NCBI RefSeq assembly: GCF_003018235.1
Contig: NZ_CP027437.1
Length of the DNA stretch: 64,000 nucleotides
Source of the DNA: Escherichia coli
Lineage (GTDB): Bacteria; Pseudomonadota; Gammaproteobacteria; Enterobacterales; Enterobacteriaceae
Direction: 5' to 3' (one strand)
Shown: in pieces, positions 5,825 to 46,337 of the stretch
Numbering within the stretch: position 1 is the stretch's first letter
Layout: each line of letters opens with the position of its first letter
Notes under the pieces: model-generated
Told to the model about the DNA's origin: nothing
Database searches by the model: none
The model's input: the letters and a program-made list of their open reading frames with translations, nothing else
Made by a program: the position numbers and the translations under genes

Positions 5825-5904
5825 GGAATACCTTTCGATTTCTCTTTCGTTCCGGCTTATAATCCCCGGCCTTTGATTATTTTTTTATCATTTCTGGAAG
5901 CAAA

Positions 5905-8124: not shown

Positions 8125-8130
8125 AAAATA

Positions 8131-8165
8131 TCCCCGGTAACAGAATGCTACCGGGAATTTTTTTA
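8131..8165. terminator. Bidirectional rho-independent terminator between convergent ygiQ and yqhH
   Basis: Hairpin cccggta-N9-taccggg flanked by an A-run upstream and a T-run (aattttttt) downstream. Confidence 0.7.
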
Positions 8166-8423
8166 TCATTCTGCGTACATACGCAAGCAGCGCAGGCAAT
8201 CAAAATAGTCCTGAGCATCAAGACGCGTATTGGCTCTGTTAGCGTCGGATTTGGCAGCATAGATTTGTGGGCGTAATGCTTTCATATCCTGCTCAAGCCG
8301 GGCGATTTTGGCATTTAATGTTTGCACATTGCTCGCCAGCTGATTGACCTTTTGCTCATTGACGCAGCCACTGAGCAAGCAGGTTGCCAGAACAACAGCT
8401 CCCACGGTGAAAATCGTTTTCAT
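8166..8423 (-). CDS. yqhH: Small lipoprotein, Lpp paralogue
   Basis: 85-aa ORF with lipobox LLSGC and coiled-coil-like repeats resembling Braun lipoprotein. Confidence 0.8.
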
Positions 8424-8473
8424 ATAGTGTTCCCTTTTATTTATTGTTCCGGCTAATTGTTATTTAACTCAGC

Positions 8474-9400: not shown

Positions 9401-9599
9401 CTGTTTTTCACCTCTCCGTTGCGTTTATCCCGGGTGTAGATGAATTGTTCCTTTAAGAGCTTCCGGCTCTGCATGATGATATCCTTATATTTGGCATTCC
9501 TGAACAAGGAAGAGTAACAATGGGCAGGACGCGAGGGGAATAAATGATTTCTGAAAAGTCCGGTAGCGGAACATTACCGCCACCGGGAGAATTTGCACG

Positions 9600-10427: not shown

Positions 10428-10531
10428 ACGTTCCTCCTTTATATGAACTCACCGGAGCAGGCTCCGGTGAGGTGTTGTGAACTTAAGTCTGGACGAAATG
10501 CCCGAAAACGAAAGTTTGAGGCGTAAAAAGC

Positions 10532-11695
10532 TTAGCGGGCGGCTTCGTATATACGGCGGCTGACATCCAGCGTAATGTCATGATTTTCGCCCAGTTGGGT
10601 CATACCGTGCTCTTCCAGTTTTTTCAACAAAGCCGGGATGGAGCTGCCGTCCAGACCGTAGTCGGAGAGGTGGGTCGGCACGCCTAATTGCTCAAAGAAA
10701 TTGCGGGTTGCGGCAATCGCGGCGTCAATACGCTCATCGTCGGAACCTTCTGTGATGTTCCAGACGCGTTCAGCATATTGCAGCAGCTTAGCGCGCTTGG
10801 TATCGCGTTTTTCATTCCACAGTGCAGGCAGGACGATAGCCAGTGTTTGTGCGTGATCCAGACCGTGCATCGCAGTCAGTTCGTGGCCTAGCATATGCGT
10901 TGCCCAGTCCTGCGGTACGCCAGCGCCAATCAAACCGTTCAGCGCCTGAGTCGCCGCCCACATAACGTTGGCGCGCACATCGTAGTTTTCTGGCTCTTTC
11001 AGGGCTTTCGGACCATCTTCGATCAGCGTCAACAAAATGCCTTCTGCGAAACGGTCCTGAATTTTGGCATCAACCGGTTTGGTAACATACTGTTCCACGG
11101 TGTGCACAAAGGCATCCACTACACCGTTAGCCACCTGACGCGGCGGCAGAGTGTAGGTATAAACCGGATCGAGCACGGCAAATACGGGTTGAACATGGGC
11201 AGAATGGAATGCCTGCTTGTCGCCTGTGGTTTTACGGGAGATCACCGCGCCTGCGTTGGATTCTGAACCGGTTGCTGGCAGCGTCAGCACACAGCCCATC
11301 GGGATGGCGCTTTTAATTTCTTTACCGCCCGTTTGTAGAATGTGCCACGGATCGATATTTTCCGGATAATTAGCCGCTGCGGCGATAAATTTGGTGCCGT
11401 CCAGTACAGAACCGCCGCCAACCGCCAGCAGGAAAGTCACTTTTTGTTCGCGAACCAGTTTCACGGCGTTCATCAGCGTTTCATAAGCCGGGTTTGGCTC
11501 AATACCGCCAAATTCCAGCACGTCCATGCCTTTCAGGGCATCCAGAACTTGATCGAGAACGCCGGTTTTTTTCACGCTGCCGCCGCCGTAGGTAATCAAT
11601 ACGCGAGCATCGTGAGGAATTTGTTCGCGTAAACCAGCGATTGCGCCTTTACCAAAAAGAATGCGGGTTGGGGTGTGCAGATTAAAGTTGTTCAT
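10532..11695 (-). CDS. yqhD: NADPH-dependent aldehyde reductase (iron-containing alcohol dehydrogenase family)
   Basis: 387 aa from ATG at 11695 ([17 protein letters not shown]); the longer ORF upstream is an in-frame extension. Confidence 0.9.
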
Positions 11696-33380: not shown

Positions 33381-34073
33381 CTAGTGATACCCACGCGCGG
33401 TCATAAAATCCGTAATCGCTTTTTCTGCATCAACCAGTACCTTTTCCAGTGGCTGATTGGCGTCGATATCAACCAGTTGTGCACCACCAAAGGTTAACTG
33501 TGGCGTTATGGCTATCTTTCTTGCCAGCGATTCCCTTTTGTGGTCAGGCTTACGCGCGCAGGCCACGTCTAGATCGACATTGAGTTTGATGACCAGATCA
33601 GGTTTATGGCTCGCCATCCAGTGAAACGCTTTACGTTCCTGGCTTGCCAGCCATGAGACAAAACGACCACCTTCAATGTTAGGTGGGAACACTGTACCAT
33701 CGTAAGCGCCAGGAATTTGGTCCTGAGGATAACGGTCGGTTAGAACAATTAACCCGCGACGACGACAGGCAAGCATATGACGAAAGCGCAGTAAGCGACG
33801 GGCGACAAACGCTGTAATTACCAGCGCCGGAACAGGGCCAGGCAATTTTTTTGCTGTTTTCACCTGATTTCGTTCAATTGTTTTATGTAAGGATTTTCCC
33901 ATCAACGGTAATTTTGTCACTGCACGACCGACATTTCCGGCCTGTTTTCCTAAATGAACTCTTTCGGCTGCACCATATTTTTCGACAACGGTAATGAGAT
34001 GTTCACACACCGTTGACTTGCCTGAACCATCGCTACCAATAACGGCAATTAATGGAGGTGTTATTGACTGCAT
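33381..34073 (-). CDS. yghT: P-loop NTPase, kinase-like; paralogue of YghS and YghR
   Basis: 230-aa ORF; Walker [10 protein letters not shown]; shared C-terminal motif RKPDH with YghS/YghR. Confidence 0.8.
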
Positions 34074-34246: not shown

Positions 34247-34960
34247 GTGAATCAACGTAATATGTCAATAATTAATTCCACGCCAGTGCGTGTTATTGCC
34301 ATTGTAGGATGTGATGGTTCAGGTAAATCGACCCTCACGGCAAGCCTGGTAAATGAACTGGCAGCAAGAATGCCAACAGAACACATTTATCTCGGGCAAT
34401 CGTCCGGGCGAATTGGCGAATGGATTTCACAGCTCCCTGTTATTGGCGCACCTTTTGGGCGTTATTTGCGAAGTAAAGCGGCACATGTGCACGAAAAGCC
34501 CTCAGCACCGCCTGGCAATATTACTGCGCTGGTTATCTATCTGCTTTCCTGCTGGCGGGCGTACAAGTTTCGCAAAATGTTGTGTAAAAGCCAGCAAGGC
34601 TATCTGCTCATCACCGACCGCTACCCGCAGGTTGAAGTGCCGGGTTTTCGCTTTGATGGCCCGCAATTGGCAAAAACCACGGGCGGTAACGGTTGGATAA
34701 AAATGTTAAGGCAGCGCGAGCTGAAGCTGTACCAATGGATGGCGTCTTATTTGCCCGTATTGTTGATTCGTCTTGGCATTGATGAACAAACCGCGTTTGC
34801 GCGTAAACCTGACCACCAACTGGCAGCGTTACAGGAAAAAATCGCCGTTACGCCGCAACTGACATTCAATGGCGCAAAGATCCTTGAACTGGATGGTCGG
34901 CAACCAGCCGATGAAATTATGCAAGCGTCACTACGCGCAATTCACGCCGCGCTTTCCTGA
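34247..34960 (+). CDS. yghS: P-loop NTPase, kinase-like; paralogue of YghT and YghR
   Basis: 237-aa ORF; Walker A GCDGSGKST. Confidence 0.8.
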   Translation: MNQRNMSIINSTPVRVIAIVGCDGSGKSTLTASLVNELAARMPTEHIYLGQSSGRIGEWISQLPVIGAPFGRYLRSKAAHVHEKPSAPPGNITALVIYLLSCWRAYKFRKMLCKSQQGYLLITDRYPQVEVPGFRFDGPQLAKTTGGNGWIKMLRQRELKLYQWMASYLPVLLIRLGIDEQTAFARKPDHQLAALQEKIAVTPQLTFNGAKILELDGRQPADEIMQASLRAIHAALS

Positions 34961-34991: not shown

Positions 34992-35748
34992 ATGGATGCA
35001 CTACAAACACAAACTGTTAAGAGTACAACCGCGCCGCAGCCCAACTACATTCCGGGGCTGATTGCGGTGGTCGGGTGTGATGGCACCGGTAAATCCACGC
35101 TGACCACCGACCTGGTGAAATCGCTGCAACAACACTGGCAAACCGAGCGGCGCTATCTGGGGCTGCTCTCCGGCGAAGACGGCGACAAAATCAAACGATT
35201 GCCGTTGGTTGGCGTCTGGCTGGAACGGCGGCTGGCGGCCAAATCCTCGAAAACCCAAAGCATGAAAACCAAATTTCCAGCGCTATGGGCGGCGGTGATT
35301 ATGTACTGCTTCTCGCTGCGAAGAATGGCGAATCTACGCAAGGTTCAGCGACTGGCGCAAAGTGGCGTTCTGGTGGTCAGCGATCGCTTCCCGCAGGCTG
35401 AAATTTCGGGCTTTTATTATGACGGACCGGGGATCGGCGTCGAACGTGCGACCGGGAAAATCAGCATGTTTCTGGCGCAGCGCGAACGGCGTTTATACCA
35501 ACAAATGGCGCTACCGTCCTGAATTAATCATTCGCCTGGGCATTGATATTGATACTGCCATCTCCCGCAAGCCTGACCATGACTATGCCGAGCTGCAGGA
35601 CAAAATCGGCGTCATGTCGACGATTGGCTATAACGGCACAAAAATTCTTGAGATTGATTCCAGAGCGCCTTACAGCGAGGTGCTGGAACAGGCACAGAAG
35701 GCGGTTTCTCTGGTTGCCATCGTTTCTGACCGCCGAAGTTTAACTTAA
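34992..35748 (+). pseudogene. yghR: P-loop NTPase YghR interrupted by a frameshift near 35511 (two ORF pieces, 34992-35522 and frame +1 to 35748)
   Basis: Alignment to YghS/YghT (…LYQWMASYLP… / …FHWMASHKP…) shows the frame changing after QQMA; the repaired product would be 252 aa. Confidence 0.7.
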
Positions 35749-35793: not shown

Positions 35794-37143
35794 TTGGCGG
35801 GTTTTAACATCAAACATTGGTTTGCAGATGGCGCGTTTCGCACCATTATTCGCAATAGCGCCTGGTTAGGCTCCAGTAATGTCGTGAGCGCCTTGCTGGG
35901 TCTGTTGGCGCTCTCGTGTGCCGGTAAAGGGATGACGCCCGCCATGTTTGGCGTACTGGTGATTGTGCAATCGTACGCCAAGTCGATCAGCGATTTTATT
36001 AAGTTTCAGACATGGCAGCTGGTGGTTCAGTACGGAACGCCAGCCTTGACCAACAATAATCCGCAGCAATTTCGCAATGTTGTCTCATTTTCCTTCTCGC
36101 TGGATATCGTCAGCGGCGCGGTGGCGATTGTCGGCGGCATTGCCTTACTGCCATTCCTTTCCCATTCATTAGGTCTGGATGACCAAAGCTTTTGGCTGGC
36201 GGCGCTCTATTGCACGCTCATTCCTTCAATGGCTTCCTCCACGCCGACCGGCATTCTGCGTGCGGTAGATCGCTTTGATTTGATTGCTGTACAGCAGGCG
36301 ACGAAACCTTTTCTGCGCGCAGCGGGGAGCGTCGTAGCCTGGTATTTTGACTTTGGTTTTGCGGGTTTTGTTATTGCCTGGTACGTGTCGAATCTGGTTG
36401 GCGGCACCATGTACTGGTGGTTTGCCGCGCGCGAATTACGCCGCAGAAATATCCATAACACCTTCAAATTGAATCTGTTTGAGTCTGCCCGACACATTAA
36501 AGGCGCGTGGAGTTTTGTCTGGTCAACCAACATTGCCCACTCCATCTGGTCGGCACGTAACTCGTGCAGCACAGTGCTGGTGGGGATCGTGTTAGGACCC
36601 GCTGCCGCCGGGTTATTTAAAATCGCCATGACATTCTTCGACGCCGCCGGAACGCCAGCGGGTTTACTGGGTAAAAGTTTTTACCCAGAGGTGATGCGTT
36701 TAGATCCGCGCACCACCAGACCGTGGTTGTTAGGCGTGAAGTCCGGTTTACTGGCGGGCGGAATCGGTATTCTGGTGGCGCTCGCGGTGTTGATCGTCGG
36801 CAAGCCGCTCATTTCGCTGGTGTTTGGCGTTAAGTATCTCGAAGCGTATGACCTGATTCAGGTGATGCTGGGCGCAATTGTGATTTCGATGCTGGGCTTC
36901 CCACAGGAGTCATTGCTATTGATGGCGGGAAAACAGCGCGCTTTTCTCGTGGCGCAAACCATCGCCTCAATCGGCTACATCGTATTGCTGTTCATGTTCT
37001 GTCATCTGTTTGGCGTGCTGGGGGCTGCATTTGCTTACTTCGCTGGGCAATGTCTGGATGTGGTGTTCTCGCTAATTCCAACCTTAAAGGCATTTTTTCA
37101 GCGCCATTCCTTGCTTTATAACGCAGCCGGAGAGAAATCCTGA
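35794..37143 (+). CDS. yghQ: Multi-pass membrane protein of the MOP/Wzx-like flippase superfamily; start codon uncertain
   Basis: 449-aa ORF (maximal), highly hydrophobic; K-12 annotation is shorter, to my recollection. Confidence 0.7.
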   Translation: MAGFNIKHWFADGAFRTIIRNSAWLGSSNVVSALLGLLALSCAGKGMTPAMFGVLVIVQSYAKSISDFIKFQTWQLVVQYGTPALTNNNPQQFRNVVSFSFSLDIVSGAVAIVGGIALLPFLSHSLGLDDQSFWLAALYCTLIPSMASSTPTGILRAVDRFDLIAVQQATKPFLRAAGSVVAWYFDFGFAGFVIAWYVSNLVGGTMYWWFAARELRRRNIHNTFKLNLFESARHIKGAWSFVWSTNIAHSIWSARNSCSTVLVGIVLGPAAAGLFKIAMTFFDAAGTPAGLLGKSFYPEVMRLDPRTTRPWLLGVKSGLLAGGIGILVALAVLIVGKPLISLVFGVKYLEAYDLIQVMLGAIVISMLGFPQESLLLMAGKQRAFLVAQTIASIGYIVLLFMFCHLFGVLGAAFAYFAGQCLDVVFSLIPTLKAFFQRHSLLYNAAGEKS

Positions 37144-37967
37144 TGATGAGAAAATATTTCCCGCTTGAGGCTAGCGAGCGTCTATTTGTTGCGATTGAAG
37201 AAGATGATGTCGTTGATGCACAGGTCAGTTTGCCGCCGACTATCGCACTAAGTTGTACCACCGAAATCATCCATGATAATTACGCGTTATGCCTGAAATT
37301 CTGGCTGGATGGTGTTAATCGTCAGGAGCTACTGCGTTTAATCCGCAAACAGGCGAAAGGCGATGAGCTGACGACAGACGAGCGCAAAAAGTATAAATAC
37401 ATGCGAGCGCGCTACAAGCATCTGCGCTTTGCGCAACGGCTGTATTTAAAGAAGCATCAGGCCGGATTTTTATTCGGCAAAACGACCGTTTTTTTGGGGC
37501 GTTTTCAGGACGGCTTTCGTAACGGTAAGAAAAATATTGTGTCGTATTACGGCAACCTGTTACGGGTTTATTTAAGCTCTCCGGTCTGGTCGTTGGTGAA
37601 CTATTCATTACGCCATAGCCAGTTAGAAAGCGTAAGCGGTTTTATTGCCTATCGGCAAAAGCAAATGCATACCCTGAAAGAGATAATTGCCAAACCGCGA
37701 CTAACTGGCAGGGAATTTCATGATGTGCGAAAAATCATCAGCCAGCAGGTTTCTTATTACGACACCCTAAGATCGCTTGATCCTGAAAATAAAGAGGCGT
37801 TACAGATTTCCCGCTTCCTCGCCGCCATTAATGGCCTGATGGGGGATAAACACGACGACATGGTGGCGGATGATATGGAAAACCGCCAGTCGTATGATGC
37901 ACCGGTGGCGCTGGATAGCGATATTCGCCAGCGCTTAGAGCTGCTGATTTCGCGTTTTCCGCTATAA
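37143..37967 (+). CDS. Hypothetical protein, 274 aa, no recognisable domain
   Basis: Start overlaps the yghQ stop (TGATG); charged, non-membrane. Confidence 0.55.
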   Translation: MMRKYFPLEASERLFVAIEEDDVVDAQVSLPPTIALSCTTEIIHDNYALCLKFWLDGVNRQELLRLIRKQAKGDELTTDERKKYKYMRARYKHLRFAQRLYLKKHQAGFLFGKTTVFLGRFQDGFRNGKKNIVSYYGNLLRVYLSSPVWSLVNYSLRHSQLESVSGFIAYRQKQMHTLKEIIAKPRLTGREFHDVRKIISQQVSYYDTLRSLDPENKEALQISRFLAAINGLMGDKHDDMVADDMENRQSYDAPVALDSDIRQRLELLISRFPL

Positions 37968-37975
37968 CCGGAGCA

Positions 37976-38539
37976 ATGATGTCATCTCGTTTGATTATTG
38001 CGCTGATTATCATGCTCTTAGCCCCGGGTGTGCAGGCACACAATTTCGTCACTGGCAAAACGGTTACCCCTGTTTATATCCAGGAAGGCGGCGAGCTGCT
38101 TCTGAATAGCGACGACGAAATTCACTACCAAAAGTGGAACAGCACACAGCTGGCGGGAAAAGTTCGCATTATTCAGTATATCGCCGGGCGTAAGTCGGCG
38201 AAGAAAAAGAACTCACTGTTAATTAAAGCGGTTGAAGCGGCAAACTTTCCGCAGGATCGTTTTCAGCCCACCACCATTGTGAACACCGATGATGCCATTT
38301 TTGGTACTGGCTATTTTGTCGTTGGCAAAATCGAAAAAAATAAACGCCGCTATCCGTGGGCGCAATTCGTTATTGACGGCAATGGACAGGGACGCGTTGC
38401 CTGGCGGTTGCCGGAGCAGAGTTCAACCATTCTGGTGCTGAATAAAGCCGGGCAAATTCAGTGGGCAAAGGACGGCAGCCTGACGCCGGAAGAGGTAGAA
38501 CATGTCATTGCGCTGGCGCAGAAACTGATCAATGAATAA
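37976..38539 (+). CDS. YtfJ-family periplasmic protein
   Basis: 187-aa ORF; signal peptide MMSSRLIIALIIMLLAPGVQA; conserved TTIVNTDDAI and WAKDGSLTPEEV blocks recalled from E. coli YtfJ. Confidence 0.55.
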   Translation: MMSSRLIIALIIMLLAPGVQAHNFVTGKTVTPVYIQEGGELLLNSDDEIHYQKWNSTQLAGKVRIIQYIAGRKSAKKKNSLLIKAVEAANFPQDRFQPTTIVNTDDAIFGTGYFVVGKIEKNKRRYPWAQFVIDGNGQGRVAWRLPEQSSTILVLNKAGQIQWAKDGSLTPEEVEHVIALAQKLINE

Positions 38540-38569
38540 AAAATTCAAAGGATTGAGGGCGTTAGTGAG

Positions 38570-39640
38570 ATGAAGCTGGTTGAACACTACATCATGCGTG
38601 GTACGCGCCGTCTGGTGCTGATTATCGTCGGTTTTCTGATCTTTATTTTCGCCAGCTACTCCGCACAGCGTTATCTGACCGAAGCGGCAAATGGGACATT
38701 AGCTCTTGATGTTGTGCTGGATATTGTTTTCTACAAGGTGCTGATTGCACTGGAGATGTTGTTACCTGTTGGACTGTATGTGTCAGTTGGCGTGACGCTA
38801 GGGCAGATGTATACCGACTCGGAAATTACCGCTATTTCTGCGGCGGGGGGCAGTCCGGGACGCTTGTACAAAGCCGTTCTTTATCTGGCGATACCGCTAA
38901 GTATTTTTGTCACCCTTCTGTCGATGTATGGTCGTCCGTGGGCTTATGCGCAGATTTATCAACTGGAGCAACAGTCACAGTCGGAGCTGGATGTTCGCCA
39001 GTTGCGGGCAAAGAAATTTAACACTAACGATAACGGACGAATGATCCTTTCGCAGACGGTTGATCAGGATAATAATCGCCTGACTGACGCGCTGATTTAT
39101 ACTTCTACTGCCAATCGAACCCGCATTTTCCGCGCCCGTTCGGTTGATGTGGTTGACCCATCACCTGAGAAACCGACCGTTATGTTGCATAACGGGACCG
39201 CCTATCTTCTCGATCATCAGGGGCGTGACGACAACGAACAGATCTACCGTAATCTGCAATTACATCTGAATCCGCTGGATCAAAGCCCTAACGTCAAACG
39301 CAAAGCAAAATCGGTCACGGAGCTGGCGCGCTCCGCCTTTCCTGCCGATCATGCCGAACTGCAATGGCGACAAAGCCGTGGCCTGACAGCATTGTTGATG
39401 GCGCTGCTGGCCATTTCATTAAGTCGGGTAAAACCGCGGCAAGGGCGATTTTCAACGTTATTGCCACTGACGTTGCTGTTTATTGCCATTTTTTATGGCG
39501 GCGACGTCTGCCGTACGCTGGTGGCTAACGGCGCGATTCCCCTCATTCCTGGTTTGTGGTTAGTACCCGGACTCATGCTAATGGGCCTGCTGATGCTGGT
39601 CGCACGCGACTTCTCATTGCTGCAGAAATTTTCCCGATGA
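38570..39640 (+). CDS. LptF-like permease (YjgP/YjgQ family)
   Basis: 356-aa ORF; N-terminal TM helices, periplasmic beta-jellyroll-like insert, C-terminal TM helices. Confidence 0.65.
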   Translation: MKLVEHYIMRGTRRLVLIIVGFLIFIFASYSAQRYLTEAANGTLALDVVLDIVFYKVLIALEMLLPVGLYVSVGVTLGQMYTDSEITAISAAGGSPGRLYKAVLYLAIPLSIFVTLLSMYGRPWAYAQIYQLEQQSQSELDVRQLRAKKFNTNDNGRMILSQTVDQDNNRLTDALIYTSTANRTRIFRARSVDVVDPSPEKPTVMLHNGTAYLLDHQGRDDNEQIYRNLQLHLNPLDQSPNVKRKAKSVTELARSAFPADHAELQWRQSRGLTALLMALLAISLSRVKPRQGRFSTLLPLTLLFIAIFYGGDVCRTLVANGAIPLIPGLWLVPGLMLMGLLMLVARDFSLLQKFSR

Positions 39641-40716
39641 ATGTTTTCAGTCGCTATTTAATCCGTCATCTCTTTCTCGGTTTTGCCGCCGCCGCAGGGC
39701 TATTGCTGCCGCTTTTTACCACCTTCAACCTGATTAACGAACTGGATGATGTCAGCCCGGGCGGTTATCGCTGGACTCAGGCGGTGCTGGTGGTGCTGAT
39801 GACCTTACCGCGTACACTGGTCGAACTTTCGCCGTTTATCGCATTATTGGGAGGGATTGTTGGCCTGGGGCAGTTATCGAAAAACAGTGAGCTTACCGCC
39901 ATTCGCAGCACGGGGTTTTCTATCTTCCGTATTGCACTAGTGGCGCTGGTTGCCGGGATATTGTGGACTGTTTCGTTAGGCGCGATAGATGAGTGGGTGG
40001 CGTCGCCATTGCAGCAACAGGCGCTGCAAATCAAATCGACTGCCACCGCGTTGGGGGAGGACGATGACATTACCGGCAATATGCTTTGGGCCAGGCGCGG
40101 TAATGAATTTGTGACGGTGAAATCGCTGAACGAGCAGGGCCAGCCTGTGGGCGTGGAGATATTTCATTATCGCGACGATCTCTCGCTCGAATCCTACATT
40201 TTTGCACGCAGTGCCTCCATTGAAGACGACAAAACATGGATCCTGCATGGTGTGAATCATAAAAAATGGTTGAATGGCAAGGAAACGCTGGAAACATCAG
40301 ATAATCTTGCCTGGCAATCGGCCTTCACCAGTATGAATCTTGAAGAGTTATCGATGCCGGGAAATACTTTTTCTGTCCGTCAACTTAATCATTACATCCA
40401 TTATTTGCAGGAAACTGGGCAACCCAGCAGCGAATACCGCCTTGCACTGTGGGAAAAACTGGGACAACCCATCCTGACCCTGGCGATGATTTTGCTGGCT
40501 GTGCCGTTTACCTTTAGTGCCCCGCGTTCGCCTGGGATGGGTAGCCGTCTCGCTGTAGGCGTCATCGTGGGCTTACTTACCTGGATCAGCTATCAAATCA
40601 TGGTCAATCTGGGATTGCTATTTGCGTTGAGCGCACCTGTTACCGCGCTCGGTTTACCGGTAGCGTTTGTGCTGGTGGCGTTGAGCCTGGTGTATTGGTA
40701 TGACAGACAACATTAA
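39637..40716 (+). CDS. LptG-like permease (YjgP/YjgQ family), paired with the upstream gene
   Basis: 359 aa from ATG at 39637 (MNVFSRYLIRHLF), overlapping the upstream stop (ATGA). Confidence 0.65.
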   Translation: MNVFSRYLIRHLFLGFAAAAGLLLPLFTTFNLINELDDVSPGGYRWTQAVLVVLMTLPRTLVELSPFIALLGGIVGLGQLSKNSELTAIRSTGFSIFRIALVALVAGILWTVSLGAIDEWVASPLQQQALQIKSTATALGEDDDITGNMLWARRGNEFVTVKSLNEQGQPVGVEIFHYRDDLSLESYIFARSASIEDDKTWILHGVNHKKWLNGKETLETSDNLAWQSAFTSMNLEELSMPGNTFSVRQLNHYIHYLQETGQPSSEYRLALWEKLGQPILTLAMILLAVPFTFSAPRSPGMGSRLAVGVIVGLLTWISYQIMVNLGLLFALSAPVTALGLPVAFVLVALSLVYWYDRQH

Positions 40717-40746
40717 ACCCGCCGTGGCGCAACACCACAGCGGGCT
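40717..40746. terminator. Hairpin between the convergent permease and lipid-synthesis operons
   Basis: cccgccgtgg-N7-ccacagcggg, 10-bp stem with one mismatch. Confidence 0.4.
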
Positions 40747-40750
40747 CACA

Positions 40751-41923
40751 TTACTGCTTCAGAGTAGCGAACGCTTGAATGATGGCATCAATTTGCTCAC
40801 GACTGTGGGCAGCGTTTACGCTACAGCGCAGCAGCGTGATGCCTGCAGGCGCGGCAGGTGGCAGGATAAGATTCACATAAACGCCCAGCGAAATAAGCTC
40901 GCGCCAGATGCGTAAACCTTCCTCTTTCGAACCGATTATTACTGGCACTACCGGGCTAATATGTGAACTTAACTCATAATCCAGTTTTTGCAGACCGTCA
41001 TACAGATGGTTGGCATTATCCATCAGCTTTTGCCGCAACTCTGGTTGTGAGACAATGGTTCTTAACGACGAGCGCACGGTCGCAATGCAGGACGGAGAAG
41101 GAGAGGCGGTAAAAATATACGGGCGGCTGCCGTAGCGCAACACTTCCATCGCTTCCGAACCGACAGCAAAACCGCCAATCGAGGCCAGGCTTTTACTGAA
41201 GGTACCAACGATAATATCCACATCATCTTCAACGCCAACGGCTTCAGCCAGTCCGCGCCCCGTTGCGCCTAACACGCCAAACGAATGCGCTTCATCGACA
41301 ATCAAATAACCACCGAGACGACGTTTGATATCAACAATTTCCGCCAGCGGCGCAACGTCACCGAGCATACTGTAGATGCCTTCAACGATGATAATCGCCT
41401 CTTTTGCCCGTTCACCGAGGCGAACCATGCGCCGTTCCAGATCTTTAGCATCGTTATGGCGGAAACGAATAATTTCCGCGCCACCGAGAGAACAGGCGTC
41501 ATAAATACTGGCGTGGCTGTCGGCATCCAGTAACACCACGGCGTTATGGTCGGCAAGTGCGCTGATGACGCCTAAATTAGCGGTATAACCGGTTGAAAAA
41601 ACGATAGCGGTAGGGCGATTAAAAAACTCGGCGATCTCTTTCTCTAACGCCAGATGCGGCGCATAACTGCCGTTTGCCATACGAGAACCGGTGGTGCCGG
41701 TGCCTTGGGCCGCTAACGCTGCCTGACCTTCGGCGATGGCATCATGATTAAAGGTTAAACCGAGATAATTATTGGTCCCGGCCAGAATCACTTTTTTATT
41801 GCCGATCCGACCTTCGGTGGCGGAATACACTTCATCAATACAGGTGCCAAACGGTGTTAACCCGTTGTCACTAAATTGCAGTCGCTCGCCAGCAAGGCGC
41901 GCATATTTATCGTATAGCCCCAT
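40751..41923 (-). CDS. PLP-dependent alpha-oxoamine synthase, serine palmitoyltransferase-like
   Basis: 390-aa ORF; PLP-lysine motif GTFSKSLASIGG (SPT-like rather than BioF GTFGKA or Kbl GTLGKA) and DADSHAS histidine motif. Confidence 0.75.
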   Translation of the reverse strand: MGLYDKYARLAGERLQFSDNGLTPFGTCIDEVYSATEGRIGNKKVILAGTNNYLGLTFNHDAIAEGQAALAAQGTGTTGSRMANGSYAPHLALEKEIAEFFNRPTAIVFSTGYTANLGVISALADHNAVVLLDADSHASIYDACSLGGAEIIRFRHNDAKDLERRMVRLGERAKEAIIIVEGIYSMLGDVAPLAEIVDIKRRLGGYLIVDEAHSFGVLGATGRGLAEAVGVEDDVDIIVGTFSKSLASIGGFAVGSEAMEVLRYGSRPYIFTASPSPSCIATVRSSLRTIVSQPELRQKLMDNANHLYDGLQKLDYELSSHISPVVPVIIGSKEEGLRIWRELISLGVYVNLILPPAAPAGITLLRCSVNAAHSREQIDAIIQAFATLKQ

Positions 41924-42202: not shown

Positions 42203-43117
42203 TCAAAATAGCCCGTTGCGTAATGCGTGTTCCAGGCTAATCCCGGGAAACCAATTAATATCTTCAGAAATACGGTTATTACTTGCCGACCAGTCGGCAT
42301 GAGTTAATTCACGGATTTTCGAACGAGTCAGCATCGGTTCTTTACCCGCCAGACGGCTCAACGCGGTACTGATATCCGCAAGGCAGGTGAGTAGCGGCAG
42401 AGGAATACCGACCATCCGCACGGAACCGCAACGGGCGTCGGCGGCAAGCTGTCTTACGCGTTGCCAGTCATAGCCTCCGGCGACGCCATCGCATAATTCA
42501 TAGGTTTGCGTCTGTACAGTTTCGGCGCTTAACCACTGACCCACTGCTTGCGCAAAATCGGTGACGTGAAGAAAAGAGAGCTGTGTCTCTGGCGTGCCAA
42601 GTCGTGGCAGCAGGCCGCGCAGCATCCAGTCAAACAGCGGTTTTAACTCTTTATCGCCGGGACCATACACGGCTGTCGGGCGAAAAACGCCCAGCGTAAT
42701 TTCATCAGCCATTGCAGTCAGCCGTTGTTCGGCGACGTGTTTGGAATTTGCGTACCAGGAGAGTTCGGGATGGCGCGCCGCCAGCGAAGAGATAAACAGA
42801 AAACGTTGGCAAAAGCCGCTCTCTTTTGCCGCTTGCATCAGGCGCAGGCTGCCGTCAACGTTACAGCGGGTAAAAATCTCTTCTTTGTGTCCGCGCACTT
42901 GTCCGGCGCAATGGACCACCGCGCTGGCTCCGGCAACCAGTTCGCTAAGCGAATGTGTATCTTCCAGCGAACCGCGCACCCAGATGAGATTATCATTGAC
43001 GTGAGCGCGGGCAGTACGCGTCAATGCGCGAACGTGAAAGCCGCGGGCGAGCAGGTTATCGATAATATATTTACCGATAAACCCGGTAGCGCCCGTCACC
43101 GCGACAGTTTGATTCAT
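42203..43117 (-). CDS. NAD(P)-dependent epimerase/dehydratase-fold reductase (extended SDR)
   Basis: 304-aa ORF; Rossmann motif GATGFIG; catalytic YANSK (YxxxK). Confidence 0.7.
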   Translation of the reverse strand: MNQTVAVTGATGFIGKYIIDNLLARGFHVRALTRTARAHVNDNLIWVRGSLEDTHSLSELVAGASAVVHCAGQVRGHKEEIFTRCNVDGSLRLMQAAKESGFCQRFLFISSLAARHPELSWYANSKHVAEQRLTAMADEITLGVFRPTAVYGPGDKELKPLFDWMLRGLLPRLGTPETQLSFLHVTDFAQAVGQWLSAETVQTQTYELCDGVAGGYDWQRVRQLAADARCGSVRMVGIPLPLLTCLADISTALSRLAGKEPMLTRSKIRELTHADWSASNNRISEDINWFPGISLEHALRNGLF

Positions 43118-44850
43118 GCCAGGGATTCCTGCACATGAAGGCTTGCAGCATAACGTTTTTTCGCTTCCGCACGGGCAGGCTTGCCGGAGGACGTTCGGGG
43201 AATACTGTGGGGCGGCAACAGATCGATAGCCGCTGTTACGCCAAATTCGCTTTGGATCCGTGCTACCAGTGCGTGGATAAGCTGCCCACGACGTTCTTCG
43301 TCGCTGATCCTACACTGGATCTGCAGAATGATTTTTTCCTGGGCGGTAACAAAAGCAATCGCATCGCCAGAATGAATTTCCGGTTCCTGTTCCGCAATAT
43401 ATTCAATATCCTGCGGCCAGATATTACGGCCACGAATAATAATCAGATCTTTAATGCGTCCGGTGACATACAGATAACCGTCCAGCAGATAACCGAGGTC
43501 GCCGGTGTCTAACCAGCCCGTCGCGGCAATCTCGTCTTGTGAAATCTGGTCGCCAAAGTAACCGCTCATCAGGCTAGGGCCGGAGATGCAAATATGGCCT
43601 ACCACACGTTCCGCGACAGGTATACCTGCTTCATTGCGGATTTCAATGCCATGTTCCGGCAACGCTTTACCGCAGTTGACGAAAGTCGATACGGCGCGTG
43701 TTTCAGCATCCGGCGCGACGGCTTTGCCCTGATATTCGAGGATGTCGCGATCCACTTCGTTAACCACAACCCCGGAAGCTTCATCAGAGAAGCTGACAGC
43801 CAGCGCATTTTCTGCCAGTCCGTAGCACGGCATGAAAGTTTTATCGTCAAAGTTGACCTGACGGAAACATTCAGCGAATTGATGGAGTTGTTCTGCGGAG
43901 ATGGGTTCTGCACCAATACCAGCGACGCGCCAGCAGGAAAGATCCAGTTCAGCGAGATCTTTTTCATTCACGCGGCGCTGGCACAATTCATAGCCAAACG
44001 GCGGCGCAACGGAAACGGTGCCGCGATTTTTACTGATCAATTTAAGCCATTGCAGAGGACGCATGGCAAAATCCTGAGTGCGCAAATAATCTACTGAAAG
44101 CTGCGTGGCGACGGGGGGCAGGAGAAAGCCGACCAGTCCCATATCATGGTAGAAAGGCAGCCAGGAGACGCAGCGGTCGCCAGGGCGTAATTTAATGCCA
44201 TCGTGGCTTATAGCACGTAGATTAGCCATCACTTCGCGATGGGTGATAATGACGCCACGGGGAAAACGGGTGCTGCCGGAGGTGTACTGGAGGTAGGCGA
44301 TATCGTTCGGAACTGGACGCTGGAGCGCAACATCGGCTTCCGGTAATGCCTTAAACCAGGCGTGGCTTAAAACATGTAATTCGGGGTTGTTATGCGTAGC
44401 GGCATTGACCAGTGGCAACCACTCATCACCAGTGATAATGGCTGCGGGCTGGCAACTTGCCAGTAAACCCTGCAGTTTGGCGCTCCAGGAATCCCGCTGA
44501 CCGACGCCCATTGGAATCGCCAACGGGACGGCGACTAAGCCGGCATACTGGCAGGAAAAAAAAGCCTCTACGAACCCGCTACTGGTTTCGGCAATCAGCG
44601 CCACGCGATCGCCTTTTTTCAGGTTCAGCGATAACAACCGCTTCGCACCAGCTTCGGCACGCGCTTTTAACGTCTGATATTCCAGTTGATCTTCAAGTTG
44701 GCAACGTCTGTCATAAAAATTCATTCCGGCGCTACTCAGAGCGGCGTAGTCCAAAGCATCAACCAGCGTTGGAAAATCGGCATAGCGCATAGGTAGGGAA
44801 TGCGTAAAGATTTTATTAGACATATACACCACGAAAAAATTGGATATCAA
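43114..44850 (-). CDS. Adenylate-forming acyl-AMP ligase / acyl-ACP synthetase-like enzyme; start uncertain
   Basis: 578-aa ORF; AMP-binding motif YTSGSTRFPRG; 4-nt overlap with the downstream reductase gene. Confidence 0.7.
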   Translation of the reverse strand: MISNFFVVYMSNKIFTHSLPMRYADFPTLVDALDYAALSSAGMNFYDRRCQLEDQLEYQTLKARAEAGAKRLLSLNLKKGDRVALIAETSSGFVEAFFSCQYAGLVAVPLAIPMGVGQRDSWSAKLQGLLASCQPAAIITGDEWLPLVNAATHNNPELHVLSHAWFKALPEADVALQRPVPNDIAYLQYTSGSTRFPRGVIITHREVMANLRAISHDGIKLRPGDRCVSWLPFYHDMGLVGFLLPPVATQLSVDYLRTQDFAMRPLQWLKLISKNRGTVSVAPPFGYELCQRRVNEKDLAELDLSCWRVAGIGAEPISAEQLHQFAECFRQVNFDDKTFMPCYGLAENALAVSFSDEASGVVVNEVDRDILEYQGKAVAPDAETRAVSTFVNCGKALPEHGIEIRNEAGIPVAERVVGHICISGPSLMSGYFGDQISQDEIAATGWLDTGDLGYLLDGYLYVTGRIKDLIIIRGRNIWPQDIEYIAEQEPEIHSGDAIAFVTAQEKIILQIQCRISDEERRGQLIHALVARIQSEFGVTAAIDLLPPHSIPRTSSGKPARAEAKKRYAASLHVQESLA

Positions 44851-45194: not shown

Positions 45195-46337
45195 ATGGAA
45201 TGCGATCTGCTGATGATTAAAATTGAAAAAGTAATTAATAAAAATGACCTTAAGGCATTTATCGCTTTTCCGTCATCACTTTATCCCGACGATCCAAACT
45301 GGATACCCCCTTTATTCATTGAACGCAACGAGCATTTGTCTGCGAAAAATCCGGGGACGGACCATATCATCTGGCAGGCGTGGGTGGCAAAAAAAGCCGG
45401 GCAGATAGTTGGGCGAATTACCGCGCAAATCGATACCTTGCACCGTGAGCGTTACGGTGAAGATACCGGTCATTTCGGCATGATTGACGCCATTGATGAT
45501 CCGCAGGTTTTTGCCGCGTTGTTTGGCGCAGCGGAAGCGTGGTTGAAGTCACAAGGAGCAAGTAAGATCAGCGGGCCTTTCAGCCTGAATATCAATCAGG
45601 AAAGCGGATTACTGATTGAAGGTTTCGATACACCACCCTGTGCGATGATGCCGCACGGTAAACCGTGGTATGCCGCGCATATTGAACAATTGGGTTATCA
45701 CAAAGGCATTGATTTACTGGCGTGGTGGATGCAGCGAACCGATCTCACTTTCTCTCCGGCGCTAAAAAAACTGATGGATCAGGTGCGTAAGAAGGTGACC
45801 ATTCGCTGCATCAATCGCCAGCGGTTTGCCGAAGAGATGCAGATCCTGCGTGAGATTTTCAACTCTGGCTGGCAGCACAACTGGGGATTTGTGCCGTTTA
45901 CCGAACATGAATTCGCGACCATGGGCGATCAACTTAAATATCTGGTGCCGGACGATATGATCTACATCGCTGAGATTGATTCTGCACCCTGCGCGTTTAT
46001 TGTCGGCTTGCCAAACATCAACGAGGCGATTGCCGATCTGAACGGATCGCTCTTTCCCTTCGGCTGGGCAAAATTGCTGTGGCGTTTAAAAGTCAGCGGT
46101 GTGCGAACTGCGCGAGTACCGCTGATGGGCGTGCGGGACGAGTATCAGTTTAGCCGCATCGGCCCGGTGATTGCGCTGTTATTGATTGAAGCCTTACGCG
46201 ATCCGTTTGCCCGCCGGAAGATCGATGCGCTGGAAATGTCATGGATCCTCGAAACCAATACAGGCATGAATAACATGCTGGAACGCATTGGGGCGGAGCC
46301 GTACAAGCGTTACCGATTGTATGAAAAGCAGATTTAA
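45195..46337 (+). CDS. yghO: GNAT-fold acyltransferase-like protein, intact
   Basis: 380-aa ORF, divergent from the lipid operon across an AT-rich region; GNAT assignment is from recollection of this family, not a motif scan. Confidence 0.6.
   Translation: MECDLLMIKIEKVINKNDLKAFIAFPSSLYPDDPNWIPPLFIERNEHLSAKNPGTDHIIWQAWVAKKAGQIVGRITAQIDTLHRERYGEDTGHFGMIDAIDDPQVFAALFGAAEAWLKSQGASKISGPFSLNINQESGLLIEGFDTPPCAMMPHGKPWYAAHIEQLGYHKGIDLLAWWMQRTDLTFSPALKKLMDQVRKKVTIRCINRQRFAEEMQILREIFNSGWQHNWGFVPFTEHEFATMGDQLKYLVPDDMIYIAEIDSAPCAFIVGLPNINEAIADLNGSLFPFGWAKLLWRLKVSGVRTARVPLMGVRDEYQFSRIGPVIALLLIEALRDPFARRKIDALEMSWILETNTGMNNMLERIGAEPYKRYRLYEKQI

What the first reader, a model, noticed from the sequence alone, without database searches (positions are those of the whole stretch)
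35794..40716. Putative export module: flippase-like YghQ, two unknown proteins and an LptF/LptG-like permease pair with no ATPase
Five co-directional, partly overlapping genes encode a MOP/Wzx-like flippase (YghQ), a 274-aa protein of unknown function, a YtfJ-family periplasmic protein, and a pair of YjgP/YjgQ-type permeases that look like paralogues of LptF/LptG. No LptB-like ATPase is encoded nearby. A second Lpt-like extractor next to a lipid-synthesis operon suggests a dedicated route moving a non-LPS lipid to the outer membrane.
Basis: partly seen in the sequence, partly recalled or inferred. Interest (0 to 1): 0.7.

Follow-up and report, generated by a model that had tools for sequence, protein, structure and literature searches.

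The report
E. coli sphingolipid export genes
These five genes are the transport half of the accessory sphingolipid (ceramide) gene island that about three quarters of E. coli strains carry; its second LptF/LptG pair most likely borrows the cell's own LptB ATPase to move the sphingolipid outward, a model already shown for Caulobacter and already drawn for E. coli.

Summary
Five co-directional, tightly packed genes lie at 35794-40716: a distant MOP-type flippase (YghQ), a 274-aa protein, a YtfJ-family periplasmic protein, and an LptF-like/LptG-like pair. No ABC ATPase, LptA or LptC is encoded anywhere in the 64-kb window.

The neighbouring "lipid-synthesis operon" is the proteobacterial ceramide pathway (aasR, cerR, acpR, spt, plus yghO/bCerS). 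The pair therefore matches the sphingolipid "LptF2/LptG2" transporter. This was proposed in 2024 and tested in Caulobacter in an April 2026 preprint, where the pair forms a complex, binds the single LptB, and is essential only when anionic sphingolipid is made. That preprint's Figure 2B draws the E. coli UTI89 locus.

New details from this analysis:
- The LptB-coupling glutamates are conserved.
- Several LPS-phosphate and core contacts of LptG are replaced by acidic or neutral residues.
- LptF2 lacks the arginine (R212) whose loss makes LptC dispensable.
- The 274-aa protein has a CHAD fold and always follows yghQ, including in Novosphingobium.
- The YtfJ paralogue has a thioredoxin fold with no conserved cysteines.
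- Rhodanobacteraceae carry an RND pump where YtfJ2-LptF2-LptG2 would be.
- The head-group chemistry, with three P-loop kinase-like genes, is unknown.

The parts
33381..34073 (-). yghT: P-loop, dTMP-kinase-like protein. One of three paralogous kinase-like genes of the island, transcribed divergently.
   Evidence: ORF and Walker A motif. Weak dTMP-kinase match of 24 bits, well below cut-off. Conserved with the island in Enterobacterales, Rhodanobacteraceae and Novosphingobium.
34247..34960 (+). yghS: P-loop kinase-like protein. Probable first gene of the plus-strand operon.
   Evidence: Only the P-loop matches in Pfam, and there is no ABC signature motif.
34992..35748 (+). yghR: P-loop kinase-like gene, disrupted in this strain by a 2-bp deletion.
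   Evidence: Alignment to the intact yghR of L001 shows a 2-bp gap. The result is a stop at 35522, giving 176 aa instead of 252 aa.
35794..37143 (+). yghQ: distant MOP/Wzx-type (Polysacc_synt) membrane protein. Candidate flippase for the sphingolipid across the inner membrane.
   Evidence: Pfam PF01943, E = 1e-8, and PF13440. Several hydrophobic segments. Always immediately upstream of the CHAD-fold gene in the 44 loci where it was detected. The Caulobacter locus has a protein of the same Pfam family, CC_1166, proposed as a flippase.
37143..37967 (+). 274-aa cytoplasmic all-helical protein with a CHAD-like fold. Its start overlaps the yghQ stop.
37979..38539 (+). ytfJ2: periplasmic YtfJ-family protein with a thioredoxin-like fold and no conserved cysteines. 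A paralogue of the core gene ytfJ.
38570..39640 (+). lptF2: LptF paralogue. One transmembrane half of the putative sphingolipid extractor.
   Evidence: TIGR04407, 319 bits. 29% identity to K-12 LptF. Full-length matches to all solved LptF chains. Coupling-helix Glu85 conserved in 39 of 39 orthologues. The position equivalent to R212 is A, S, G or T.
39637..40716 (+). lptG2: LptG paralogue, translationally coupled to lptF2.
   Evidence: TIGR04408, 304 bits. 28% identity to K-12 LptG over 350 residues. Full-length matches to solved LptG chains. Glu85, equivalent to E88, conserved in 38 of 39. K34, K40, K41 and R133 are replaced by N, D/E, D and L. ATGA overlap with lptF2.
40714..40748 (.). 16-bp-stem GC-rich hairpin that fills the gap between the convergent lptG2 and spt genes. 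Probable bidirectional terminator.
   Evidence: Terminator scan and the sequence itself.
40751..41923 (-). spt: serine palmitoyltransferase.
   Evidence: NF047599 equivalog, 595 bits against a cut-off of 500. RefSeq annotation. The E. coli BL21 orthologue was assayed in PMC9386255.
41923..42171 (-). acpR: specialised acyl carrier protein for Spt.
   Evidence: RefSeq annotation. PMC9386255.
42203..43117 (-). cerR/epi: NAD-dependent reductase of the ceramide pathway.
   Evidence: PMC9386255 Fig. 9 legend.
43114..44850 (-). aasR: fatty acyl-AMP ligase / acyl-AcpR synthetase. The RefSeq start corresponds to window position 44835.
   Evidence: NF006624, 867 bits..
45195..46337 (+). yghO: N-acyltransferase (bacterial ceramide synthase, 'aca').
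   Evidence: Listed as the CC_1154 orthologue in PMC9386255. Conserved in all complete loci.

Best explanation
The five genes are the transport end of a 13-gene accessory sphingolipid island (yghT, yghS-yghR-yghQ-CHAD-ytfJ2-lptF2-lptG2, spt-acpR-cerR-aasR, yghO).

Proposed pathway:
1. Ceramide is made on the cytoplasmic side by AasR, AcpR, Spt, YghO and CerR.
2. Its head group is probably modified by the YghR/S/T kinase-like proteins. These are P-loop proteins.
3. YghQ flips the lipid across the inner membrane, perhaps helped by its cytoplasmic CHAD-fold partner.
4. LptF2 and LptG2 form a heterodimer that docks two copies of the housekeeping LptB through their conserved coupling helices.
5. 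[quoted passage not shown]

What is shown here:
- Gene content.
- Homology.
- Conserved coupling residues.
- An altered substrate-binding rim.
- Conserved linkage to spt.
- Absence of any ATPase in the window.

What is shown elsewhere, in Caulobacter only:
- F2-G2 complex formation.
- LptB binding.
- Lethality of deleting the transporter genes when anionic sphingolipid is made.

What is inferred:
- Every step in E. coli.
- The flippase role of YghQ.
- The roles of the CHAD-fold protein and YtfJ2.
- The use of the Lpt bridge.
For: 1. Family. TIGR04407 and TIGR04408 score above cut-off. Both proteins align over their full length to all solved LptF and LptG chains. Hydropathy gives three N-terminal and three C-terminal hydrophobic regions around a hydrophilic middle of about 160 residues.

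2. Coupling to LptB.
- The glutamates equivalent to LptF E84 and LptG E88 are kept in 39/39 and 38/39 enterobacterial orthologues. They are also kept in 31/31 wider LptF2-like representatives.
- The coupling-helix stretch is the most conserved, or joint most conserved, 21-residue window between paralogue and canonical protein: 57% against 28% overall.

3. No ATPase, LptA or LptC in 64 kb.

4. Not a replacement for the canonical pair. Canonical lptFG is in 5425 of 5426 complete E. coli genomes. The island module is at >=80% coverage in 4091.

5. Substrate is not LPS. The LPS contacts are listed in PMC6744409.
- LptG K40 becomes D/E (39/39).
- LptG K41 becomes D (39/39).
- LptG K34 becomes N, D or T.
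- LptG R133 becomes mostly L.
- LptG I66 becomes D, E or N.
- The same acidic pattern appears in four metagenomic LptG2-like partners.

6. Linkage. All 13 genes co-occur in about 20 genera of Enterobacterales in at least four gene orders.

7. Clade.
- The nearest non-enterobacterial LptF2 relatives (37-38% identity) score 163-182 bits against the window protein and 53-61 bits against K-12 LptF.
- Two of them, L008 and L059, lie next to bCerS, aasR or spt.

8. Displacement. Rhodanobacter, Luteibacter and Dyella keep yghTSR, the ceramide genes, yghQ and the CHAD gene. They have a yghO-MdtA-MdtB-MdtC-OMF RND pump where ytfJ2-lptF2-lptG2 would be. This fits an export role.

9. Purifying selection on all five genes.

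10. Experimental precedent in Caulobacter and the earlier proposal in PMC11324152.
Against: - No experiment exists for E. coli. No native E. coli sphingolipid turned up in the literature searches.
- The E. coli island lacks the Caulobacter head-group genes (cpgABC and others). The transported molecule is therefore unknown.
- yghR is frameshifted in this strain, so the final product may be altered or the pathway partly decayed here.
- Binding of LptB was inferred from conserved residues only. No complex model could be computed.
- The whole genomes of the Rhodanobacteraceae were not searched, so lptF2G2 could lie elsewhere in them.
Confidence: 0.7

Rival explanations
1. The pair is a second LPS exporter, as RefSeq labels it. 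It would be a back-up, or a version specialised for a modified LPS, and would sit next to the ceramide genes by chance.
For: PGAP names both genes 'LPS export ABC transporter permease LptF/LptG', and both exceed the equivalog cut-offs. Some lipid-A-phosphate contacts are kept: LptF R33 and K317 (as R), LptG K62 (as R) and R136 (as K).
Against: - Linkage to spt survives repeated rearrangement across many genera.
- LptG K40 and K41 show charge reversal, and K34, R133 and the inner-core contacts are lost.
- K34E alone is lethal in canonical LptG (PMC6744409).
- K-12 lost the pair through an IS5-associated deletion yet keeps its canonical lptFG; it is the standard viable laboratory strain (general knowledge).
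- Relatives outside the Enterobacterales also sit in sphingolipid loci.
Confidence: 0.07
2. The island is cryptic or decaying in E. coli. The genes would be inherited but rarely or never expressed, so the permease pair has no role under ordinary conditions, in this strain in particular.
For: yghR carries a 2-bp frameshift here. K-12 lost eight genes to an IS5-associated deletion. About 25% of complete E. coli genomes lack most of the module. No report of a native E. coli sphingolipid was found.
Against: dN/dS of 0.04-0.12 on all five genes. The full 13-gene set is retained in about 20 genera. The E. coli BL21 Spt, AcpR and AasR proteins are enzymatically active (PMC9386255).
Confidence: 0.13
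3. The system works inwards. YtfJ2 would act as a periplasmic binding protein, and LptF2G2 would take up or retrieve sphingoid lipids, for example host-derived ones, into the inner membrane.
For: A soluble periplasmic protein (YtfJ2) co-occurs strictly with the permease pair and is lost with it. This resembles the binding-protein-plus-permease layout of importers.
Against: - All characterised LptFG-type transporters are extractors that work outwards.
- The Caulobacter genetics point to export, since loss of the transporter is toxic only when the lipid is made.
- The island encodes complete de novo synthesis.
- In Rhodanobacteraceae the position is taken by an RND efflux pump.
Confidence: 0.04
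4. The pair is energised by something other than LptB, for example one of the YghR/S/T proteins, or it acts as an ATP-independent scramblase or scaffold.
For: Three P-loop proteins are encoded in the same operon, and no ABC ATPase is nearby.
Against: - YghR/S/T have no ABC signature and resemble nucleotide or small-molecule kinases only weakly.
- The coupling-helix glutamates that dock into LptB are strictly conserved.
- A related metagenomic pair sits directly behind an LptB equivalog scoring 331 bits.
- Caulobacter F2/G2 bind LptB.
- The kinases also occur without lptF2G2, in Rhodanobacteraceae and Novosphingobium.
Confidence: 0.04

Closest known systems
Caulobacter crescentus LptF2/LptG2 (CCNA_01214/CCNA_01213; CC_1156/CC_1155), the sphingolipid-locus paralogues of LptFG
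   Same: - An LptF-like and an LptG-like gene lie side by side inside the spt/ceramide locus.
- There is no lptB copy in the locus.
- A Polysacc_synt-type putative flippase is in the same locus.
- The proposed mechanism is the same: an LptB2F2G2 extractor for a sphingolipid.
- The preprint draws the E. coli UTI89 locus beside the Caulobacter one.
   Different: - E. coli has no LptC2.
- It has none of the CPG2 head-group genes.
- Instead it has three P-loop kinase-like genes, a CHAD-fold protein and a YtfJ paralogue.
- Nothing has been tested in E. coli.
Canonical LptB2FGC lipopolysaccharide extractor of E. coli and Shigella (PDB 6MHU, 6S8H and others)
   Same: - Same family and length.
- 3+3 transmembrane layout around a periplasmic domain.
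- Conserved coupling-helix glutamates.
- Several cavity residues retained: LptF R33, F26 and K317 (as R); LptG L26, Y257 and R136 (as K).
   Different: - Only 28-29% identity.
- The LptG rim lysines K34, K40 and K41 are replaced by N, D/E and D, and R133 is lost.
- The inner-core contacts LptF K322, R263 and Q248 are not conserved.
- LptF R212 is replaced by A, S or G, the kind of change that bypasses LptC.
- The pair is accessory rather than essential.
CHAD domains (polyphosphate-binding helical bundles: Ricinus CHAD 6qv5, Streptomyces PptA 6rn5, Chlorobium 3e0s)
   Different: - No Pfam CHAD match and no profile match to any PDB sequence.
- 8-18% identity to the solved CHAD domains.
- Always coupled to a MOP-type membrane protein in sphingolipid-related loci, a context not found described for CHAD domains in the papers read here.
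- The ligand is unknown.
Wzx/MurJ-type MOP flippases
   Same: YghQ matches Pfam Polysacc_synt and Polysacc_synt_3 and is a polytopic membrane protein.
   Different: The match is weak: 34.6 bits against an equivalog cut-off of 273. The presumed substrate is a sphingolipid rather than an undecaprenyl-linked glycan. No experiment exists.

Membership tests
LptF/LptG permeases (PF03739; TIGR04407/TIGR04408) | Full-length sequence match above the curated cut-offs, LptF-type for one protein and LptG-type for the other | tested here: met
   319 bits (cut-off 230) and 304 bits (cut-off 240). The cross-matches are much weaker at 67 and 85 bits. Full-length phmmer hits to all solved LptF and LptG chains.
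LptF/LptG permeases (PF03739; TIGR04407/TIGR04408) | Six transmembrane helices, with a periplasmic domain inserted between TM3 and TM4 | tested here: met
   Hydropathy gives hydrophobic segments within residues ~15-120 and ~275-350, flanking a hydrophilic stretch of about 160 residues. The alignments to solved chains span residues 4-353 and 3-351. The fold itself was not modelled here.
LptF/LptG permeases (PF03739; TIGR04407/TIGR04408) | Coupling helix carrying the conserved glutamate that docks into LptB (LptF E84, LptG E88) | tested here: met
   LptF2 E85 is kept in 39/39 and LptG2 E85 in 38/39 orthologues, and in 31/31 of the wider clade. This is the best, or joint best, conserved window between the paralogues. 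The role of E84 and E88 is taken from my own knowledge of the LptB2FG literature and was not re-read here.
LptF/LptG permeases (PF03739; TIGR04407/TIGR04408) | Basic residues that bind the lipid A phosphates and the inner core (LptG K34, K40, K41, K62, R133, R136; LptF R33, K317, K322, R263) | tested here: not met
   - LptG2: K34 becomes N, K40 becomes D/E, K41 becomes D and R133 becomes L.
- LptF2: K322 becomes N and R263 is variable.
- Kept: LptF R33 and K317 (as R); LptG K62 (as R) and R136 (as K).
- So the pair belongs to the fold family, but the 'LPS export' label is doubtful.
LptF/LptG permeases (PF03739; TIGR04407/TIGR04408) | Physical complex with an LptB dimer, and ATP-driven extraction | not testable with these tools
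   Shown only for the Caulobacter paralogues, by pull-down.
Sphingolipid-locus LptF2/LptG2 transporters (Caulobacter type) | Encoded within or next to the spt/ceramide synthesis locus, as a second pair alongside canonical lptFG | tested here: met
   34 nt separate lptG2 from the convergent spt gene. The linkage is conserved in about 20 genera. Canonical lptFG is present in 5425 of 5426 E. coli genomes.
Sphingolipid-locus LptF2/LptG2 transporters (Caulobacter type) | No dedicated lptB in the locus | tested here: met
Sphingolipid-locus LptF2/LptG2 transporters (Caulobacter type) | Closer in sequence to other sphingolipid-locus LptF2 proteins than to the host's canonical LptF | tested here: met
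   The LptF2-like proteins of L006, L007 and L008 score 163-182 bits against the window LptF2 and 53-61 bits against K-12 LptF. L008 and L059 sit next to bCerS, aasR or spt. Direct comparison with the Caulobacter sequences was not done.
Sphingolipid-locus LptF2/LptG2 transporters (Caulobacter type) | Deletable only when the (anionic) sphingolipid is not made | not testable with these tools
   Genetic result in Caulobacter only.
MOP (Wzx/MurJ/MATE) flippase superfamily: YghQ | Match to the Polysacc_synt profiles, and a polytopic membrane protein | tested here: met
   PF01943, E = 1e-8, and PF13440, E = 1e-7. Hydrophobic segments. The NCBIfam MOP equivalog is far below its cut-off, so YghQ belongs to the superfamily only.
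CHAD domain: the 274-aa protein | Sequence match to the Pfam CHAD profile | tested here: not met
   No Pfam hit with E <= 0.001. No PDB sequence hit with a 22-sequence profile.
CHAD domain: the 274-aa protein | CHAD helical-bundle fold | tested here: met
CHAD domain: the 274-aa protein | Binds inorganic polyphosphate | not testable with these tools
   Only the invariant basic and His residues can be noted.
YtfJ_HI0045 family (TIGR01626/PF09695) | Full-length match above cut-off, and a signal peptide | tested here: met
   212 bits against a cut-off of 151. Hydrophobic N-terminus. 55% identical to K-12 YtfJ.
Thiol-disulfide oxidoreductases (TlpA/DsbE/ResA) and peroxiredoxins | Catalytic CxxC motif or peroxidatic cysteine | tested here: not met

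The most novel reading that the evidence does not exclude
The enterobacterial island may make and export a sphingolipid whose head group is not yet described. The head group would be built by three P-loop kinase-like enzymes rather than by the Caulobacter CpgABC route. Three components would be unrecognised.

1. A CHAD-fold cytoplasmic protein that works with the MOP flippase YghQ. This pair is conserved as far as Sphingomonadales.

2. An LptB2F2G2 extractor that is naturally independent of LptC. No member of the clade has Arg at the LptF R212 position, which is the LptC-bypass suppressor site.

3. A cysteine-free thioredoxin-fold periplasmic protein, YtfJ2, acting as an accessory of the extractor. 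By extension, the core protein YtfJ, whose function is unknown, would be an accessory factor of envelope lipid transport.
Probability: 0.2. Interest if true: 0.7.

Novelty: new member of a known kind. Interest (0 to 1): 0.4.

Why it matters
Most E. coli strains, including BL21 and the uropathogen UTI89 named in the cited papers, carry a full ceramide pathway. About three quarters of complete E. coli genomes also carry most of a dedicated second LptFG pair, which K-12 lost.

If the pair really shares LptB, and possibly the LptA/LptDE bridge, with LPS export, three things follow:
- Sphingolipid and LPS traffic compete for one motor in a major pathogen.
- Inhibitors aimed at LptB or LptFG might affect both routes.
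- Studies of the K-12 outer membrane miss a lipid class present in wild strains.

The concept is already published for Caulobacter. The value here lies in the E. coli-specific details and the testable residues:
- The acidic rim of LptG2.
- The position in LptF2 equivalent to R212.
- The CHAD-fold partner of YghQ.
- The YtfJ paralogue.
- The unknown head-group chemistry.

Tried and rejected
1. A scan of genome contigs with a 31-sequence LptF2 alignment failed, because no stretch was conserved enough. The scan was run with the alignment of the 274-aa protein instead.

2. The contigs carrying the best non-enterobacterial LptF2 representatives were mostly too short to show context. Only L008, L059 and L060 were informative.

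3. Sequence searches of the PDB gave nothing significant for YtfJ2, the CHAD-fold family profile, YghR or YghT. Only fold comparison worked.

4. The promoter scan found no more sites than shuffled sequence does (14 against 15.5 ± 4.3). No promoter is claimed. Only the hairpin at 40714-40748 stands out.

5. I asked whether the 274-aa protein equals Caulobacter CC_1167, the gene next to that organism's flippase. This was rejected, because CC_1167 is a CDP-glycerol glycerophosphotransferase-type protein.

6. I asked whether YghR/S/T could be the missing ATPase. This was rejected: they have no ABC signature and only a P-loop.

7. Literature searches for yghQ, yghR, yghS, yghT and YtfJ returned no functional study relevant to sphingolipids. 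No report of a native E. coli sphingolipid was found.

8. Rare 553-aa YtfJ+LptF 'fusion' proteins in read-archive assemblies are singletons. They are probably stop-codon loss or assembly artefacts and were not pursued.

Full report
**1. The observation**

The window is Escherichia chromosome: hyb, gss and pitB on one side of the island, and glcC and glcDEFGB on the other.

A megablast against 5,426 complete E. coli genomes finds the stretch in 4,633 of them. In 4,091 it is covered at >=80%, at 95-99% identity. RefSeq annotates it as 'lipopolysaccharide biosynthesis protein', 'hypothetical protein', 'YtfJ family protein', 'lptF' and 'lptG'.

The true start of the LptG-like gene is the ATG at 39637, which overlaps the lptF2 stop (ATGA). 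The start of the 274-aa gene overlaps the yghQ stop (TGATG).

Family assignments are solid for three of the five proteins:
- LptF-like: TIGR04407, 319 bits.
- LptG-like: TIGR04408, 304 bits.
- YtfJ family: TIGR01626, 212 bits.

YghQ is a distant Polysacc_synt/MOP member. The 274-aa protein matches nothing by sequence.

No ORF in the whole window carries an ABC signature motif. K-12 LptA, LptB and LptC find nothing by tblastn.

All five genes are under strong purifying selection, with dN/dS of 0.04-0.12 against E. whittamii.

**2. What the surroundings are**

Convergent with lptG2, after a 34-nt gap filled by a 16-bp-stem hairpin, lie four genes on the minus strand:
- spt (serine palmitoyltransferase equivalog, 595 bits).
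- An acyl carrier protein.
- An NAD-dependent reductase.
- A fatty acyl-AMP ligase.

yghO follows on the plus strand.

Padilla-Gómez et al. (PMC9386255) showed that exactly these E. coli BL21 genes (spt, acpR, aasR) are active. The same paper lists the reductase and yghO as orthologues of the two further genes of the five-gene dihydroceramide pathway of Rhodobacteria.

Upstream lie three paralogous P-loop genes: yghT (divergent), yghS and yghR. So the 'lipid-synthesis operon' is a sphingolipid pathway, and the finding is its transport side.

K-12 lacks the segment from the 3' end of yghQ to the 5' end of yghO; an IS5 element sits at that position. This explains why the system is unfamiliar from K-12 work.

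**3. Is the pair truly LptFG-like, and can it couple to LptB?**

LptF2 is 29% identical to K-12 LptF, and LptG2 is 28% identical to K-12 LptG. Both align end to end with every solved LptF or LptG chain. Hydropathy gives three hydrophobic segments, a hydrophilic stretch of about 160 residues, then three more hydrophobic segments.

The glutamates that dock into LptB are present:
- LptF2 has E85 in the motif 'DSEIT', equivalent to LptF E84.
- LptG2 has E85 in the motif 'NSELT', equivalent to LptG E88.
- They are kept in 39/39 and 38/39 enterobacterial orthologues.
- They are kept in 31/31 representatives of the wider LptF2-like clade.

The stretch around the coupling helix is the best, or joint best, conserved 21-residue window between each paralogue and its canonical counterpart. 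Identity there is 57%, against 28% overall.

**4. The substrate site differs from that of LPS exporters**

The LPS contacts come from the Shigella LptB2FG-LPS structure (PMC6744409).

| Canonical residue | In LptG2 or LptF2 | Reading |
|---|---|---|
| LptG K34 | N, D or T | lost |
| LptG K40 | D/E in 39/39 | charge reversed |
| LptG K41 | D in 39/39 | charge reversed |
| LptG R133 | mostly L | lost |
| LptG I66 (acyl contact) | D, E or N | changed |
| LptF K322, R263, Q248 (inner-core contacts) | not conserved | lost |
| LptF R33 | R | kept |
| LptF K317 | R | kept |
| LptG K62 | R | kept |
| LptG R136 | K | kept |

K34E alone is lethal in canonical LptG. The same acidic pattern is seen in four LptG2-like partners from metagenomes.

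This argues for a different and smaller head group that still carries some negative charge. It argues against the RefSeq 'LPS export' label.

The LptF2 position aligned with LptF R212 is A, S, G or T in all 39 enterobacterial orthologues, and it is never Arg in 31 wider representatives. Substitutions at R212, among them R212G, are the suppressor class that lets E. coli live without LptC by forming a six-protein bridge (PMC9972910). The island encodes no LptC2, so this fits an LptC-independent hand-off. This is an inference from one aligned position. The local motif is G-T-x-aromatic.

**5. Comparative genomics**

A scan of one genome per species, using the 274-aa family as query, returned 49 loci. 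A tblastn table across them shows the following.

- The 13 genes co-occur in Escherichia, Pseudocitrobacter, Citrobacter, Hafnia, Serratia, Sodalis, Pantoea, Erwinia, Pluralibacter, Mangrovibacter, Shimwellia, Klebsiella indica, Cedecea, Tatumella, Rosenbergiella, Rahnella and others.
- They occur in at least four different arrangements. Conserved neighbourhood despite rearrangement is good evidence that the genes work together.
- yghQ and the 274-aa gene are always adjacent.
- In Rhodanobacter, Luteibacter and Dyella the kinases, the ceramide genes, yghQ and the 274-aa gene are present, but ytfJ2, lptF2 and lptG2 are not. In their place, in one operon with yghO, is a complete RND tripartite pump: MdtA-, MdtB- and MdtC-like proteins plus an outer-membrane factor. 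A transporter swapped for another transporter supports an export role. It also suggests that YtfJ2 belongs functionally with LptF2G2.
- In Novosphingobium, two kinase-like genes, yghQ and the 274-aa gene form a block next to a PmrAB-like two-component system.

Outside the Enterobacterales, the nearest LptF2 relatives (37-38% identity) score about three times higher against LptF2 than against K-12 LptF. Where context is available they lie beside bCerS, aasR or spt (L008 and L059). One related pair follows an LptB equivalog and a sulfotransferase (L060).

**6. The two 'unknown' proteins**

*The 274-aa protein.*
- It is predicted with high confidence (pLDDT 93.7) as an all-helical bundle.
- AFDB neighbours at 26-42% identity are 'CHAD domain-containing' proteins of Sphingomonas, Zymomonas, Acetobacter, Gluconobacter, Komagataeibacter and some Pseudomonas. 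PMC9386255 lists Sphingomonas, Zymomonas and Gluconobacter among the SPT-containing Rhodobacteria.
- It has no transmembrane segment and many invariant Arg, Lys and His residues.
- It is not one of the 17 Caulobacter locus genes.
- My reading, which is inference, is a cytoplasmic partner of YghQ that binds a phosphate-rich ligand or head group.

*YtfJ2.*
- It has no conserved cysteine. By my reading of the fold, a largely invariant basic segment (A69, G70, R71 and K75 are invariant) lies where the CxxC motif would be.
- It is 55% identical to the core protein YtfJ. No functional study of YtfJ turned up in the literature search.
- It is not an oxidoreductase. A periplasmic accessory or lipid-head-group binder is the best guess.

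**7. Comparison with what is known**

Olea-Ozuna and co-workers (PMC11324152, 2024) named CC_1168, CC_1156 and CC_1155 as LptC2, LptF2 and LptG2, and CC_1166 as a putative flippase for phosphosphingolipids.

Uchendu, Isom and Klein (bioRxiv 10.64898/2026.04.12.717747, April 2026) then reported the following:
- The three genes can be deleted only when spt or the ceramide kinase is absent.
- F2 and G2 co-purify.
- Both bind the sole LptB.
- lptF2/G2 occur in many alpha- and gammaproteobacterial sphingolipid loci.
- Their Figure 2B shows the E. coli UTI89 locus.

What is not in those papers, as far as I could read, is:
- The residue-level contrast with LPS exporters.
- The R212-type position.
- The CHAD-fold partner.
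- The YtfJ paralogue.
- The P-loop kinase trio, in place of CpgABC.
- The RND displacement.

**8. Verdict**

The system is a new, experimentally untested member of a known kind. Interest is moderate.

The open and potentially novel parts are the identity of the E. coli sphingolipid and the roles of the CHAD-fold and YtfJ-family proteins. In this strain yghR is frameshifted, so the product may differ from that of strains with an intact island.

Noticed in passing
window 34992-35748 (deletion near 35511): yghR carries a 2-bp deletion relative to the intact gene of E. coli WP8-S18-ESBL-07. This gives a premature stop at 35522, so the product is 176 aa instead of 252 aa. One of the island's three kinase-like genes is therefore a pseudogene in this strain.
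   Followed up: yes
L009 (E. coli K-12 MG1655, 3127000-3137000): In K-12 an IS5 element sits between a truncated yghQ and yghO. The 274-aa gene, ytfJ2, lptF2, lptG2, spt, acpR, cerR and aasR are all missing. The laboratory reference strain therefore lacks the whole transport and synthesis core.
   Followed up: partly
L051, L052, L053, L055 (Rhodanobacter, Luteibacter, Dyella), about 10800-20750 in L051: An operon yghO-MdtA-MdtB-MdtC-outer-membrane factor (an RND tripartite pump) lies next to the yghQ/CHAD pair, in loci that lack ytfJ2, lptF2 and lptG2. The transporter appears to have been swapped within an otherwise conserved sphingolipid island. The four pump proteins were checked by family search only in L051.
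   Followed up: partly
L057 (Novosphingobium profundi), 4888-10870: A PmrA/PmrB-like two-component system lies divergent from a block of two P-loop kinase-like genes, yghQ and the CHAD-fold gene. The kinase-flippase-CHAD sub-module thus exists apart from spt in a member of the Sphingomonadales.
   Followed up: partly
L060 (metagenome contig), 887-4746: The gene order is sulfotransferase, an LptB equivalog (331 bits), an LptF2-like gene and an LptG2-like gene. L059 also has a sulfotransferase just after its LptG2-like gene, and an MsbA-like ABC protein. Some relatives may carry their own LptB and make sulfated lipids.
   Followed up: partly
L025 and L033 (Pluralibacter gergoviae and an uncultured Pluralibacter): A second copy of the CHAD-fold gene (57-61% identity) stands alone, with none of the other island genes within 10 kb on either side.
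   Followed up: no
window 38570-40716, and RefSeq records such as NZ_AP022261.1: The NCBI pipeline names the island genes 'lptF' and 'lptG: LPS export ABC transporter permease'. Most E. coli genomes therefore carry two genes with each name. The equivalog models do not separate the sphingolipid-locus paralogues from the true LPS exporters.
   Followed up: partly
proteins P0122, P0123, P0125, P0126 and P0131-P0133: There are rare 493-553-aa ORFs that fuse the YtfJ and LptF domains. Most are in E. coli read-archive assemblies, two are NCBI records, and each is a singleton. They are probably loss of the ytfJ2 stop codon across the 30-nt gap, or assembly errors.
   Followed up: no
L062 (K-12, 4436000-4443000): The core ytfJ gene, 55% identical to the island copy, lies about 3 kb from tamA. 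tamB, which follows tamA (from my own knowledge, outside the stretch read), is implicated in lipid transport to the outer membrane. ytfJ is not in the same operon as tamA. This may be coincidence.
   Followed up: no
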